From: Eledone cirrhosa | Taxonomy: Eukaryota | Length of the DNA: 64,000 nt | Reading direction: 5' to 3' | Assembly: GCA_964016885.1 (NCBI GenBank) | Contig: OZ024741.1 | Location: 107,074,001-107,138,000, forward strand | Part shown: positions 2,028-59,264 of the stretch, piece by piece | Layout of the letters: each line of letters begins with the position of its first letter | Position numbering within the stretch: the stretch's first letter is position 1 | The notes under the pieces: generated by a model | What the model was told of the DNA's origin: nothing | The model's input: the letters and a program-made list of their open reading frames with translations, nothing else | Databases searched by the model: none | Position numbers and translations under genes: made by a program

Positions 2028-2249
2028 GTAATATCAGGTAAATTATTTAATGAATAAACGACCGCTACAGTATATGTTACACTCACACGTACACACACGT
2101 ACAGACAGTCATATATATATATATATATATATATATATATATATATATATATATATATATATATGACTATGTCTGTTTGTGTGTGTACGTGTGAGTGTAA
2201 CATATACTGTAGCGGTCGTTTATTCATTAAATAATTTACCTGATATTAC
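2028..2249. repeat. Inverted repeat, ~85-bp arms around a (TA)n spacer
   Basis: gtaatatcaggtaaattatttaatgaataaacgaccgctac…gtcat (TA)n atgac…gtagcggtcgtttattcattaaataatttacctgatattac; small differences near the loop. Confidence 0.9.
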
Positions 2250-2729
2250 ACCTTCAAAACCAGGTGAAATTGATCCCCTTTTAACAACACACATATACAC
2301 AAACATACGTGCATACACTCACATACACACACAAACAGGCACACGCATCGCACTGCATCACACCGCTCACCACAGAACCAGCAATACCAGCTCCCCGACA
2401 CAGTAATCATATTGTACACACACACCTTCTCTAAGAGATCTATATATATTTATAACTCTATCTATCTATCTATCTATCTATCTATCTATCTATCTATCTA
2501 TCTCTCTCTCTCTCTCTTTCTGCCTGACGCGTGGAACATCGCCGGTAAGCTTTTTTGTTAATTTCTATGCAAAAAAACCGAAATAATTGTTTGAAAAAAC
2601 ATAACATTTTGTAGTTAACTCCCAAGCTGAATTGTTAGATGGGTGGTAACCCCATTTTTCGCCCCTCTGGGGGCGAAAATTTTATTTTAAAAATTGTTTT
2701 AAAATATCAGATTTTACAAACTAAATAAC

Positions 2730-4640
2730 TTGAGCAACACAAGAACGCTGGAGAACGTCAATAGAGAAAAGAGAGAGAAAGAAGCAGATATTAACGTTAT
2801 ATCTGCTTCTGCTACTATGGACGTCGCCATAGATACGACTGTCAACAAAGAGGAAAAAATATTACCACTTGAAGATTTTAAAATTTCTACCGTCGAAGCG
2901 GAGAAAAATAACAATAACACACAGGAAAACACAGGAATTAAACCCATTAACATACATACACACGAAAAAGACATCAACAACTCTACAGATACATCTACAC
3001 ATAATGTTTCACCTCGACAAGGAACTGAGATTTCCAACACCGAGGCTAACAACGATAACAACAACAACAACAACAGCAACACCACACAAAAAAAATGTCT
3101 TTCGCTGAAACAGTGAACAAAAAACAAGATTTTATAAATCTTGATATCTCCAAGGCAAGAGATATGCTCCAGCAAGGGAGAAAATTTGTAACTTTCGAAG
3201 AAAAGGGTGGGTTTAGAATTAACTCACCCTTTGAAATAAAGGAAGACACAATTCGCAGATCAGTCACCTTTAGGACTGTGTCAAATTCCACAAGAAATCC
3301 GACATTTGTTAGCCAAGCAGATATAGAAGCTACTTTCAAGGAAATTCTAGCAAATATCGATTTTCTCCAGCGAGGAAAACAGTACGGAAGTGTTTCCGTA
3401 CTGTTTAAAAGCGAGGCACTCACCCAAAAATATTCTGTGACACCAATGGTGTCAAAAACATACAGCTTTTTCCCTACATACATGGGAAAAAGGACACAAA
3501 AAATAAAAATAAAAAACATACCCCCAAACATTAACATCTGGTGGATCTTGGCTGGCTTCGTAGAGCCAGAAACTGATATGATTCTTTCGATACGAAAATC
3601 TATTCGAAAAAGGTGGGCGGGTACTGATTTTGAGATTCTGTTGCAAATGAAACCGGAGAGAATCTCCAAAATACCCCAAAGAGTCGTCATCGATAATAAC
3701 AACAAAATAAACATTTCGGTAGAAGGATGAACATTTCATTGCTTTCGCTGTGGTAGCACAGCACACCTAAAAGCCTATTGTCCACAAACATACAACAACA
3801 ACATCATTAAAAAAACACTATTACCAACACCAACATCAAAACAACCACCACCACCACAAGTACAACGACAGACGAAACGAGCAACCACACCAAAACAAAC
3901 AGACACTCAACCAACAACAGCAGAAAAAACAGAGACAACATCCCTGAAGAACACAGCCCCACTCCATCCCACTCCATCAAACACTACCACAAATACACAC
4001 ACCGAAACACCACCAGCACACAACATACCCCTATACCACACACCTGACGATGATTATTCATCGACGGATGAAGATGCTTCTCCTTCTTTAAGTGAAGAAG
4101 AGGGAGAACCGCGGAAATCTAAAAAGCAAAAAAAAGGGAGACCACAAAACCCCCAAAACTCCAATCACCAACACCAACACACAACCACAGACACAAACAA
4201 CAACACAAACAAAACCACAGTCAAACATCCCCCTATCAGCAAAACCAGCACCAACACCACCCCAAACACAAGCACCTACCATAAAAAGAAAACTCCCGGA
4301 CGAACAACAAACTAAAACAACACAACAAAAACACAAACAACAATACGCATACATCAACACAAACAACAAGAGTTTGATGGAGGTCATCTCCCAAAACCCC
4401 AAGATGGAGACGGAGGGCAAAACTTTCGTCAAGGCAGAATCGTCTCCACACCTTAAACTTATAAGGGTTTCTATGGAAACCTATAAAGACCTAAAAAATA
4501 AATTTTTACAGGACGTGGGCAACCCCTGCCACAAACCCATCAACCGCGTCCTGTTAAAATGTTTCCCCACCCCACCCAACACCCCACCCAGCACCCAAAT
4601 GGAGATTGAACAACCCGATCTCCAGGAAACGAAAAGATAA
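2730..4640 (+). pseudogene. LINE ORF1 (gag-like, CCHC zinc knuckle), frameshifted
   Basis: The 3095-3730 frame continues past one TGA into CFRCGSTAHLKAYCP (CX2CX4HX4C, ~3740-3785), followed by a Pro/Thr-rich tail; true start uncertain. Confidence 0.8.
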
Positions 4641-4681
4641 GTGCACCTTTCGTACATTTTCTCCAACTTTTCTTCACCAAC

Positions 4682-56539: not shown

Positions 56540-56588
56540 GCTTCTACAGGACTAGAACTGTTTCATTCGTGAGAAATCATCAGGAAGC
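56540..56588 (-). ncRNA. Type I hammerhead ribozyme
   Basis: gcttc CTGATGA t ttc tcac gaa t GAAAC ag ttctagtc ct GTA gaagc. Confidence 0.75.
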
Positions 56589-56994
56589 ATATATATATAC
56601 ATATATATAGATATAGATATATATAAGTTGTTGTATTTATGGATTATACGGTGAGTGAAGGACCGAGCGAAATTTTAATATATTCATATATATACACATT
56701 AGGTATATACACTCATATACACTGGCCTCACACACACACACACACACACACACACACACACACACACACACACACACACACACACACACACACACACACA
56801 CACACACACACACACACACACACACACACACACACACACACACACACACACACACACTCACACACACACACACACACACACTCACACACACACACACACA
56901 CACACACACACATATATATATGGGTGCTTCCAACAGTAATGGTTGCATTTTTTAAGGGTATGTCAATATTTATTTATAAAATTGATCTATATTA

Positions 56995-57059
56995 TATTTT
57001 ATCTGATGAAAGCACACCATAATTTAACTTGGTGTCCTTGAAATATGTATAATGAAATA
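56995..57059 (+). ncRNA. Type I HHR (AUA triplet family)
   Basis: tattttat CTGATGA aagc acacca…tggtgt cctt GAAAT atgt ATA atgaaata. Confidence 0.72.
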
Positions 57060-59264
57060 AATATGGTTTTATAAATATAGTTTCCATTTGTTAATATCGT
57101 TTTTTTACTCCAAATATTTGTTGACTGCTTTATGTCAGTTATAAAAATATTTGCTTGTTGTATCCCAACATTTTAAATAGAACTTTTACATATATATATA
57201 TATATATGTACGTGTGTGTGTGTGAGTGTATGAGTGTGTTTGAGTGCGTGTTTGTGTTTATATGTGTATATATAAATATTGTTTGTTTGAATTTACATTG
57301 GAATGTTGCCATTCAGTTGCATCCACTGTAATAATTTGATCAATCATGTCGACACCAGCAGTTACCTCTATGCACTTTGGTATGCAGTATATTAAGATGC
57401 AAAATATATACAATATGCATGTATTTATCTATGTTTATATACAATTAAATATAAATATATAATTATATATATATATACATACATACACACACACACATAT
57501 ATATATATATATATATATATATATATATATATATGTGTGTATATATATAAATAAATATATATATATATATGTATATATAATATATATATATAAATATATA
57601 TATATATATGTATATATATATGTATATATATAACTATATATATATGTTTATATATATATATATATATATATATATATATATATAACTTTCATATCCATAT
57701 GATAGGTTTCGGCCATGTCTAACTTAATCGCACCACCAAGCGAAATCTTTCGAATCAGGATTTGCACTCCTACATACAGATGATATACATATAATTGTAT
57801 ATATGTACATGTATACAATATTTATATACACACGTCAACATGTAGTTTTATATATATGGACATATATATAATGGTAGAACACTGGAAGGTTATATACGCA
57901 CTAGTTGACCACTCAGTCCATTGCATGAGTTTGGTAGAAGTTGGTTTCACAACAGTGAAAATTGTTAATTAACTGTTGGGGAACCTACTTCTATATATAT
58001 ATATATATAACTAGGTTCCCCAACAGTTAATTAACAATTATATTAACATCAATTAACATCAATACATCCACATATATCTTTACAGACATACATATTCTCT
58101 CTCTCTCTCTCTCTCTCTATATATATATATATATATATATATATATATACATCAATATATCCACATATATCTTTACAAACATACATATTATATATATATA
58201 TATATATATATATATATATACAGAGAGAGAGAGAGAGAGAGTCATAAATATTTGCTCTACTGTTCTCATATATTTGATATATATTTATCCTTATCGAACC
58301 CTCTTTGGATTTTAGTCTTCAAATTTATTATTGTTACTATATATATATATATATATATATATATATATATATATATATAAATAAATACACATATTTATCT
58401 GTGTTCCCGTGCATAAGTATTTATATATATATATTTACATTTACTATATATATATTCACACACACACACACACACACACACATATATATATATATCTGTG
58501 TGTGCGTATATTTATAAATATTCATTTTAGACATAGATACTTAAATATATATATATATATATATATTTCTCCTTCTCTCCACATCTTCGTGCCTAGCTTT
58601 TCCTGATTTTTGCTGCTACCATAATTATACTTATATATATATATATATATATATATATATACTTAAAAGGGAACATATTGAAAATAATCTCTTAATTTTG
58701 CAACATTAAAAGAATATTTGTAGTTTGACCTTAAGTTCTTTTTTAAATATTTAACATCTTTTCTGCATCAACCAAGAGATACATATATATATATATATAA
58801 ATACAGAAACACACACACATACACACAGACACACACTCACACAAGTACACTCACACACACACACATATATATATATATATATATATATATATATATGTAT
58901 GTATATATATGATTCATTTTATCCCGCTCTCTCTTCCTCTCTCATTCTCTCTCTATATATAGTTATATATATTCATACACGCATACACACACTCATACAT
59001 GCCCACACATATATGTATATATATATATATATTCATATATATATATATATCCCTATATATGTATATATATGTGTGTGTGTGTTTGTGTATGTGTGTGTGT
59101 GTCTGTGTGTGTGTGTATGTTTGTGTCTGTGTGTGAGTGTGTGTGGGAGGAGAGTCGTGTGTGAATTTCTGAGCTCGGGGTACGAGTGCAATCATTCGGG
59201 TAGAGATGGTGACCTTCAATTTAAACCCGAACATCAGCAATGACTGACATCACTACTGATACGA

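What the first reader, a model, noticed from the sequence alone, without database searches (positions are those of the whole stretch)
2028..58040. Pervasive fold-back duplications next to or centred on (TA)n
Seen: at least 14 local inverted duplications, at 2028-2249, 12873-13100, 16096-16729, 19215-19912, 28166-28273, 31143-31253, 32944-33070, 33945-34195, 36078-36136, 39057-39140, 47196-47403, 47836-48412, 49740-50150, 51080-51234 and 57960-58040. Many overlap HHR families, and several folds turn in or beside the HHR. Arm divergence ranges from none to high, implying different ages. Known: PLE insertions often carry inverted partial pLTRs, and long (TA)n tracts form cruciforms and break. Inference: a recurrent snap-back priming mechanism. 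Transcribed copies would form dsRNA, which would be A-to-I editing substrate if the host is a cephalopod.
Basis: partly seen in the sequence, partly recalled or inferred. Interest (0 to 1): 0.72.

Follow-up and report, generated by a model that had tools for sequence, protein, structure and literature searches.

The report
Two kinds of hairpin at TA-repeats
The mirror-image duplications are real and come in two kinds: most are stumps of Penelope-type jumping genes that land in TA repeats with two halves facing each other (a known pattern), and a smaller set look like scars left when DNA at a TA repeat folded back and copied its neighbour; either would give double-stranded RNA if transcribed.

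Summary
All 15 listed folds exist, plus at least 8 more. An outer end lies within 2 nt of a (TA)n tract in 13 of 23 folds, against 2.0 expected. They are not one phenomenon.

Class A (9 of 15) are short non-coding repeats, mostly hammerhead-bearing. All 11 folds with assignable polarity are head-to-head. One family has two fixed 3' ends about 77 nt apart. One short arm carries family sequence its partner lacks, one copy is inverted without duplication, and three loci run past one tandem unit. This is the published Penelope-like (PLE) insertion pattern, best explained by priming from both sides of a cut (TA)n, not by snap-back. Folds turn 29-331 nt upstream of the ribozyme cleavage site, never at it.

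Class B (6 of 15) are centred on (TA)n, copy flanking DNA and mostly exit into another TA run.

No read-level check, pre-event allele, autonomous PLE, RNA data or host name was obtained. This is a known kind of system, and a useful natural record of PLE integration.

The parts
2028..2249 (.). Class B fold: arms of about 83 nt around (TA)27; a TA tract lies 2 nt from the left end; no convincing hammerhead
12830..13102 (.). Class A, family F10: (TA)n, 41-nt one-sided tail, old diverged arms, (TA)n; same terminus and tail as 49687-50145; ribozyme and polarity unassigned
13515..14094 (+).
15949..16729 (.). Class A: 310-nt identical arms, 14-nt loop, hammerheads at 16200(-) and 16625(+) head-to-head, one-sided extension of about 140 nt, (TA)n on both sides
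17434..17825 (.). Class A-like, old (82%; not listed): (TA)n, arms, 56-nt tail, (TA)n; only partial ribozyme cores
19215..19912 (.). Class B, complex: inner fold on TA 19642-19709, then jumps to the outer 93-nt arm; several template switches inferred
22034..23164 (.). Class A (not listed): left arm of about 690 nt with two same-strand hammerheads 529 nt apart (1.3 units), right arm of about 440 nt with one; joined through a 3-nt overlap; (TA)n on both sides
23445..24171 (+). Unfolded copy of family F6: 657-nt unit plus a 70-nt repeat of its start (partial tandem)
28087..28274 (.). Class A, family F2: 55-nt perfect arms, 1-nt loop, 77-nt tail, 3' half of a hammerhead, (TA)n on both sides
31104..31273 (.). 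Class A, family F3: 91% arms; both hammerhead core halves on the left (-) arm and its extension; TA tract 20 nt from the right arm end
32392..33073 (-). Class A, family F6: 59-nt short arm at the 5' end, loop continuous with the long arm, hammerhead at 32743(-); compatible with snap-back of the cDNA end
33949..34195 (.). Class A by homology to F3; 92% arms; no TA tract nearby
35703..35856 (+). Second F3 copy, with an old short fold at about the same family position as 31143; hammerhead at 35754
36078..36237 (+). Class A: 26-nt arms around a hammerhead core, 6-nt loop, extension of about 100 nt, TA on both sides
39055..39216 (+). Class A, family F1: 38-nt arms, 12-nt loop that belongs to the short arm, 74-nt tail, (TA)n on both sides
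39719..39849 (.). F2 copy: inverted short segment joined to the tail, with no duplication
44932..45244 (+). Conserved coding first exon (70% identical to unnamed P0122) followed by a GT donor; the folds from 46867 onward may lie in its intron
46867..46991 (+). F2 copy with an old short fold (about 20-nt arms) and the same two 3' ends
47195..47402 (.). Class B: 72-nt non-repeat arms around TA, exit into a 340-nt TA-rich tract
47832..48415 (.). Class B: arms of about 260 nt of local DNA including (AT)n and (AC)n, differing only in repeat number; TA centre; exit through a 6-nt TA overlap
49687..50145 (.). Class A, family F10: 55-nt tail, 88% arms, TA on both sides; polarity unassigned
51080..51233 (.). 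Class B: 48-nt copy of the 3' end of hammerhead family F4, tail-to-tail around the TA tract that flanks the element
57960..58039 (.). Class B: arms of about 30 nt around (TA)9
24498..24811 (.). Two short hairpins on either side of a SINE; no TA and no ribozyme; unassigned
48704..49066 (.). Old fold (81%), 32-44 nt from TA tracts; unassigned
63152..63231 (.). Old short fold (85%), not at TA; unassigned

Best explanation
Two processes share the (TA)n tracts. Class A (9 of the 15 listed, plus 13515, 17434, 22035, 35703, 46867) are insertions of short non-autonomous repeats mobilised by a Penelope-like element. Inferred steps: the PLE endonuclease cuts both strands in a TA tract; each 3' end primes reverse transcription on tandem or circular RNA at one of two family-specific start sites, which gives a short arm and a long arm with a tail; the two cDNAs meet and are joined through a few shared bases or a short palindrome, sometimes with a small snap-back insert. 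The result is (TA)n, short arm, long arm with tail, (TA)n, head-to-head. Class B (6 of 15) are DNA-level fold-backs. Inferred steps: a 3' end inside a self-complementary TA tract primes on itself, copies 30-260 nt of flanking DNA, and is recaptured by the other TA end. Shown here: the architecture, polarity, fixed ends, tandem read-through and TA bias. Inferred: the enzymes, the RNA intermediate and the order of events. My sub-odds: class A made by PLE machinery 0.85; its arms being two separately primed cDNAs 0.65; class B being DNA snap-back 0.6.
For: Hammerhead motifs: 13 against 2 in 8 shuffles. Polarity is head-to-head in 11 of 11 assignable non-TA-centred folds, from 8 families; 8 were placed by ribozyme motifs and 3 by family homology. 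In family F2 the inverted short segments end at about the same position in 4 of 4 copies, and the long ends lie about 77 nt further on in 3 of 3. The short arm at 39057 carries 12 nt of family sequence absent from the long arm, and 39719 is inverted without duplication. At 22035 the left arm has two hammerheads 529 nt apart and a 107-nt spacer absent from the right arm; at 13515 the left arm joins the unit end to the unit start. 28 of 35 copies of these families abut TA within 5 nt, folded or not, so TA adjacency is a property of the elements. Craig et al. (passages) describe an inverted 5'-truncated copy, a one-sided tail, partial tandems and (TA)n targets for PLEs. Frangieh et al. (parts 1-2 of 4) show a PLE protein nicking and extending both strands, with two internal start sites that bound the tail. 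Class B: 51080 has the opposite polarity, 47836 and 47196 copy non-repeat flank, and 7 of 14 TA-side ends end in an alternating TA run of 3 nt or more, against 6% of background positions.
Against: No PLE reverse transcriptase or GIY-YIG ORF was found among 126 of 224 ORFs scanned, so the link to PLEs rests on architecture and ribozymes. Rfam did not recognise the ribozymes. Tails are 41-140 nt, against 30-40 nt in print. At 12873 and 49740 a possible hammerhead 3' half lies on the + strand of the left end; if real, these two would be tail-to-tail, against the model. At 32944 the loop belongs to the long arm, which snap-back explains equally well. 33945 has no TA. The TA overlap at arm ends differs from the non-homologous priming seen by Frangieh et al., and local alignment inflates that overlap. 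No empty site, pre-event allele or read was seen.
Confidence: 0.65

Rival explanations
1. One mechanism for all folds: breaks at (TA)n cruciforms are repaired by snap-back synthesis, and the hammerhead repeats are involved only because they sit beside TA tracts.
For: Fits the 6 TA-centred folds, 32944 and the joint at 13515. Long AT tracts break (passages of PMC11797062). Fold-back inversions form at breaks in yeast (PMC11724301 section 15).
Against: It does not give fixed family-specific ends (F2), uniform head-to-head polarity (11 of 11), short arms with extra family sequence (39057), inversion without duplication (39719), or arms that cross a unit junction (13515, 22035).
Confidence: 0.1
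2. Class A hairpins are made before integration, by self-priming on an antisense template or on the cDNA, and are then inserted as one piece (Arkhipova et al. 2013).
For: Apices with loops of 0-1 nt at 28166 and 31143, and the long-arm loop at 32944. The paper reports palindromes at head-to-head junctions (passages).
Against: The short-arm loop at 39057, the non-duplicated inversion at 39719, and unequal tandem content of the two arms at 22035 need two independent copying events or extra switches.
Confidence: 0.15
3. The non-TA-centred folds are palindromic MITEs or foldback DNA transposons that insert at TA.
For: 12873 and 49740 share a terminus. The 24498 and 24757 hairpins are symmetrical and have no ribozyme.
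Against: One-sided tails, apices that differ between copies of one family, unfolded copies of the same families, and hammerheads.
Confidence: 0.04
4. The youngest, near-perfect folds are library or assembly artefacts (fold-back chimeras).
For: The arms at 16096, 28166, 47836 and 51080 have no substitutions in their non-repeat parts. No read check was obtained.
Against: Most folds have substitutions between arms (121 in all: 70 transitions, 51 transversions). Perfect and diverged folds share one architecture, and each returns to the original orientation after a short arm.
Confidence: 0.06

Closest known systems
Insertion architecture of endonuclease-bearing Penelope-like elements (Arkhipova et al. 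2013, PMC3846280; Craig et al. 2021, 10.1101/2021.04.23.441226; Frangieh et al. 2024, PMC11167929)
   Same: Inverted 5'-truncated copy placed head-to-head, one-sided tail, partial tandems, palindromes at the joint, (TA)n targets (reported for Naiad, with a microsatellite bias in Neptune), two start sites.
   Different: No ORF in any copy here; tails of 41-140 nt; short TA overlap at arm ends. Naiads lack hammerheads, whereas most families here have them (F10 and 17434 may be the ribozyme-free kind).
Minimal hammerheads of truncated PLEs (Cervera and De la Pena 2014, PMC4209133)
   Same: Short or palindromic helix III, high variability, and pairs of motifs 100-700 bp apart on opposite strands (here 425 nt apart at 16096 and 243 nt at 22035).
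   Different: Cleavage is untested; several stems II are long; one family has a CAGAAGA core.
Animal non-LTR retrozymes (Cervera and de la Pena 2020, PMC7229834; Li et al. 2026, 10.64898/2026.07.22.740005)
   Same: Non-coding tandem units with a type I hammerhead, proposed to derive from PLEs.
   Different: Units of about 466-657 nt and at most 1.3 units per locus. The word 'inverted' does not occur in PMC7229834 and occurs only in a reference title in the 2026 preprint.
Local fold-back inversions at double-strand breaks (Yu et al., PMC11724301) and AT-repeat fragility (PMC11797062)
   Same: Self-primed copy of flanking DNA, with capture of the other end through 0-5 nt of overlap.
   Different: Here the primer is the TA tract itself, arms are 30-260 nt (mostly 5-34 nt in yeast), and the events are fixed in an animal assembly at 6 of 231 TA tracts in this selected window.

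Membership tests
Autonomous EN+ Penelope-like element | ORF with telomerase-like RT and GIY-YIG endonuclease | tested here: not met
   No such hit in 126 ORFs scanned against Pfam; no GIY-YIG-like motif in six frames. Not filed as an autonomous PLE.
Non-autonomous PLE-type insertion | Inverted 5'-truncated copy, head-to-head | tested here: met
   11 of 11 assignable folds; 12873, 49740 and 17434 unassigned
Non-autonomous PLE-type insertion | One-sided tail between two fixed 3' ends (30-40 nt in print) | tested here: inconclusive
   Fixed ends seen in F2 (4 and 3 copies) and F10 (2 copies), but lengths are 41-140 nt
Non-autonomous PLE-type insertion | Partial tandem forming pseudo-LTRs | tested here: met
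   22035, 13515 and 23445
Non-autonomous PLE-type insertion | Type I hammerhead in the repeat | tested here: met
   13 descriptor hits against 2 in 8 shuffles, 2 more just below threshold; no Rfam match; cleavage untested
Non-autonomous PLE-type insertion | Bias for (TA)n targets | tested here: met
   28 of 35 family copies abut TA within 5 nt, against 1 of 14 SINE copies (slightly longer tract cut-off)
Non-autonomous PLE-type insertion | Homology to the terminal repeat of an autonomous PLE in the same genome | not testable with these tools
   No genome is held for this window; metagenome scans found nothing
Non-LTR retrozyme | Two or more consecutive units, each with a complete hammerhead | tested here: inconclusive
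   Only the left arm of 22035 has two same-strand hammerheads, over 1.3 units
Non-LTR retrozyme | Expression as circular RNA | not testable with these tools
   No RNA run could be examined
Fold-back inversion at a break (class B) | Inverted copy of adjacent DNA primed from a self-complementary end | tested here: met
   TA-centred arms of local DNA at 6 loci
Fold-back inversion at a break (class B) | Pre-event allele is flank-(TA)n-flank | not testable with these tools
   No orthologous locus or reads were obtained
MITE or foldback DNA transposon | Symmetrical terminal inverted repeats, same palindrome in all copies | tested here: not met
   One-sided tails; apex differs or is absent among copies of F1, F2 and F6

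The most novel reading that the evidence does not exclude
In this lineage TA microsatellites act as a genome-wide source of hairpins. PLE enzymes cut them and leave head-to-head inserts made from two separately primed cDNAs, and the same cuts, when no RNA is loaded, self-prime and fold back over host DNA. Class B would then be abortive PLE events. Together the two classes would supply most of the near-perfect dsRNA in the genome and, if the host is an octopus, account for the excess of dsRNA potential and hyper-editing that Porath et al. 2017 reported without tracing it to a repeat family. In this window 215 of 6395 sampled 50-nt windows (3.4%) have a >95% inverted partner within 2 kb outside microsatellites, 201 of them in the folds, against 0.44% published for O. 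bimaculoides (selected window, different BLAST settings).
Probability: 0.2. Interest if true: 0.75.

Novelty: new member of a known kind. Interest (0 to 1): 0.42.

Why it matters
How PLEs make their tandem and inverted insertions is still undefined (Craig et al.). These copies give sequence-level tests that separate two-ended priming from self-priming: which arm owns the loop, the two fixed ends, inversions without duplication, and the junction overlaps. All can be counted genome-wide. Class B suggests that long (TA)n tracts leave fold-back scars in a germ line, at 6 of 231 tracts here. About 7.6% of the window lies in fold arms, with predicted uninterrupted helices up to 310 bp, so any transcription through them would give strong ADAR and small-RNA substrates. 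Such loci also trouble short-read assembly.

Tried and rejected
Rfam: the 150 listed rows of 384 for the window were miRNA-hairpin matches below gathering score, which only reflect the palindromes; no hammerhead family matched in two small regions. No whole genome is held. Two metagenome scans, one for the F1 core and one for the SINE, found 0. The run search listed 15 runs: three runs of one sample hold 54-58% of the words of 13197-23140, one more holds 20%, eight hold 6-16% and three are not indexed; no RNA holder listed. That says nothing about the folds themselves, and no reads were laid on them. The host was not identified: the exon found no longer homologue, only weak Atlas leads towards homeobox N-termini at 0.78-0.80, and one unnamed 70% match; the RTE-like RT hit unnamed proteins and a few from Mnemiopsis and Branchiostoma at 48-54%. 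'Octopus-like' is my recollection from the microsatellite load and comes from no call. Rejected: folds turning at the cleavage site (0 of 8); a hammerhead at 2240 (core too degenerate); MITE origin; a single snap-back mechanism. Four of 5 look-ups of earlier findings were empty. Paper searches listed no description of TA-centred fold-backs in an animal germ line, and 16, 20, 35 and 69 none of these structures in octopus. The library lacks most subscription journals and Repbase and Dfam were not available, so this is weak evidence of absence. I read no supplements; those of the two bioRxiv preprints are closed and may list such families.
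Full report
Observation. I aligned the two halves of each listed interval: all 15 are inverted duplications. A self-BLAST of the window with microsatellites masked (30% of bases) gave 29 inverted and 8 direct HSPs at gaps under 500 nt, with no consistent excess at longer range. From that list and from reading the sequence (covering 1-3000, 9501-41000 and 43001-64000) I added 8 folds, making a hand-assembled set of 23 with arm identities of 81-100%. 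Two further short folds and one non-duplicated inversion turned up later and are not in that count. Thirteen of 23 have an outer end within 2 nt of a TA tract of 10 nt or more, 14 within 10 nt and 17 within 60 nt; random placement of the same spans gives means of 2.0, 2.6 and 6.3, and never reached the observed values in 5000 trials. One of 14 SINE copies abuts TA. An automatic scan of 231 merged TA tracts found 5 with inverted flanks (4 loci) against 2 with direct flanks, and 3 of 3000 mismatched pairs; it missed 48111 and 51131, probably because of masking, and one search shows both to be TA-centred.

Ribozymes. A type I hammerhead descriptor found 13 sites scoring 5 or more, against 2 in total over 8 shuffles; the pair at 16200(-) and 16625(+) scores 4.8. 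Rfam gave no hammerhead match in two test regions or among the listed rows for the window, so the identification rests on my descriptor and on different stems around one core in several families. Eight of the 15 listed folds overlap such a family. The cleavage site lies 29, 34, 35, 99, about 240, 262, about 280 and 331 nt 3' of the apex at 39057, 36078, 28166, 31143, 13515, 16096, 22035 and 32944 (my arithmetic). So folds can turn within or just upstream of the ribozyme, but never at its cut.

Class A anatomy. In 11 of 11 non-TA-centred folds where ribozyme sense can be assigned, sense reads from the apex outward. These come from 8 families, so the chance value is about 1 in 256 if families are the unit. 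Family F2 has four copies: the inverted short segments end at about the same position in all four, and the long ends lie about 77 nt further on in the three that have one. One F2 copy (39719-39849) is an inverted short segment joined to the tail with no duplication. At 39057 the 12-nt loop matches the F1 family sequence when read with the short arm, and the long arm lacks it. At 36078 the loop read with the short arm would restore stem I (my inference). At 32944 the loop belongs to the long arm. At 22035 the left arm holds two hammerheads 529 nt apart and a 107-nt spacer missing from the right arm, the right arm runs about 100 nt further 3', and the two join through a 3-nt overlap. At 13515 the left arm joins the end of the unit to its start, with about 25 nt found only there, and the joint has a short templated insert turning at small palindromes. 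23445-24171 is a 657-nt unit plus a repeat of its first 70 nt. Of 35 copies of these families, 28 abut TA within 5 nt whether folded or not. Among the 30 copies of multi-copy families, 11 are folded or inverted by my count, against 1 of 14 SINE copies; single-copy families were defined because they fold. Against the model: 12873 and 49740 have no convincing ribozyme, and a possible 3' half there would make them tail-to-tail; 33945 has no TA; and no PLE ORF was found in 126 of 224 ORFs scanned.

Class B anatomy. 2028, 19215, 47196, 47836, 51080 and 57960 are centred on TA. 47196 and 47836 copy 72 and about 260 nt of non-repeat flank, the latter including its own microsatellites, and exit directly into TA. 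51080 copies the last 48 nt of an F4 element tail-to-tail around the tract that flanks it, the opposite polarity to class A. 19215 needs several switches. 2028 exits 2 nt from a tract, 19215 28 nt from one, and 57960 into a short ATAT remnant only. Over 14 TA-side ends of both classes, 7 end in an alternating run of 3 nt or more in the partner arm, against 6% of background positions; alignment extension inflates this somewhat.

Mechanism. For class A, two separately primed cDNAs explain the fixed ends, the polarity, the short-arm loop, the non-duplicated inversion and the unequal tandem content. Two cDNAs of the same sense can only anneal at inverted sequence, which would also explain why several apices fall in palindromes or ribozyme stems (inference). 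Frangieh et al. (PMC11167929; parts 1-2 of 4 read) show a PLE protein cleaving AT-rich DNA and extending both strands, two internal start sites bounding the tail, and uncleaved RNA as the main template, which agrees with apices upstream of the cut. They found priming without homology, whereas I see short TA overlaps. Arkhipova et al. (PMC3846280; abstract and passages) describe the same head-to-head structures and favour self-priming on an antisense template; that remains the main rival for folds with 0-1 nt loops. For class B, Yu et al. (PMC11724301; abstract and section 15) give the closest model, and PMC11797062 (passages) supports breakage at long AT tracts.

Comparison with what is known. 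Craig et al. (bioRxiv version; passages) state that PLE insertions often carry an inverted 5'-truncated copy and a 30-40 bp tail, that Naiads prefer (TA)n, occur in Octopus and lack hammerheads, and that the origin of these structures is undefined. Cervera and De la Pena (PMC4209133; passages) saw minimal hammerheads 100-700 bp apart on opposite strands. The retrozyme papers (PMC7229834, passages; 10.64898/2026.07.22.740005, part 1 of 5 and passages) cover tandem units and their PLE origin, but not inverted forms. PMC6962438 (passages) only notes Penelope and hammerhead matches in giant squid. Class A is therefore a new set of members of a known kind. It works like a PLE insertion; membership in a named PLE family is untested because no autonomous partner was available. 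Earlier AI notes on other genomes reached similar readings; I treat them as leads only. Class B matches a known repair mechanism; my searches listed no report of it at TA tracts in an animal germ line, in a library that is incomplete.

dsRNA. Predicted uninterrupted helices reach 310 bp at 16096, 145 at 47836, 131 at 19215 and 91 at 22035. By a measure modelled on Porath et al. (PMC5625713; passages), 215 of 6395 sampled windows have a near-perfect inverted partner within 2 kb (60 have a direct one), 201 of them in folds; only the 4020 non-microsatellite windows were tested. That paper gives 0.44% for O. bimaculoides and notes heavy editing of Penelope in lizard. The window was chosen for its folds and my settings differ, so this is not a genome estimate. 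A conserved first exon at 44932-45244 (70% identical to unnamed P0122, with the same start and end) may place the folds from 46867 onward in an intron, but no downstream exon was identified. Host, transcription and editing are unshown.

Limits. There is no read-level confirmation and no pre-event allele. Runs of one sample hold 54-58% of the words of one 10-kb region, which does not test the folds and may be the assembly's own source. Substitutions between arms and the shared architecture make a general artefact unlikely, but the four near-perfect folds remain unverified.

Verdict. Novelty: new member of a known kind. Interest 0.42. The bolder reading (class B as abortive PLE cuts, and both classes as the main source of dsRNA) has probability about 0.2 and would deserve about 0.75.

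Noticed in passing
window 10483-10679, 15658-15818, 20732-20850, 21146-21351, 54360-54452, 55118-55176, 58244-58337: A TA-associated family whose hammerhead-like motif has a CAGAAGA core in place of CTGANGA at the two sites the descriptor reported (10546, 55122); none of 7 copies is folded. A variant or inactive ribozyme.
   Followed up: partly
window 44932-45244 (+): Conserved coding first exon with an eh1-like FSVENIL motif (label recalled) and a GT donor; 70% identical to unnamed P0122; weak Atlas leads to homeobox proteins; no homeodomain motif found in the window.
   Followed up: partly
window 2703-9258 (+): Broken LINE with endonuclease and RT hits and a second copy of its 3' 1.3 kb in tandem at 82% identity.
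   Followed up: no
window 14107-15129 (+): 3' part of an RTE-like RT ORF between TA tracts; nearest proteins 70-76% identical, unnamed.
   Followed up: partly
window 27201-27818 and 11 other places: A SINE-like repeat of about 190 nt with tRNA-like boxes (my reading), 14 copies or fragments; a tandem trimer here, the third copy with an internal 16-bp hairpin at 27672-27707.
   Followed up: partly
window 21890-21916: (TAACCC)4.5 telomere-like repeat between TA tracts, next to a 40-nt repeat also seen at 19372, 56317 and about 39285.
   Followed up: no
window 24498-24811: A SINE sits between two short hairpins, and its apparent target duplication is the end of the first hairpin.
   Followed up: partly
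window 44017-44052: 36-nt F1 remnant between TA tracts made of two pieces in opposite orientation; possibly a minimal two-ended insertion.
   Followed up: partly
window 11328-11544 and 36919-37135: Two 217-nt GC-rich copies at 94% identity in opposite orientation, probably the 3' end of another LINE.
   Followed up: no
window 51853-52023 (+): Single C2H2 zinc-finger match below the Pfam cut-off (23.3 against 25.2 bits), beside a repeat shared with 30294-30451.
   Followed up: no
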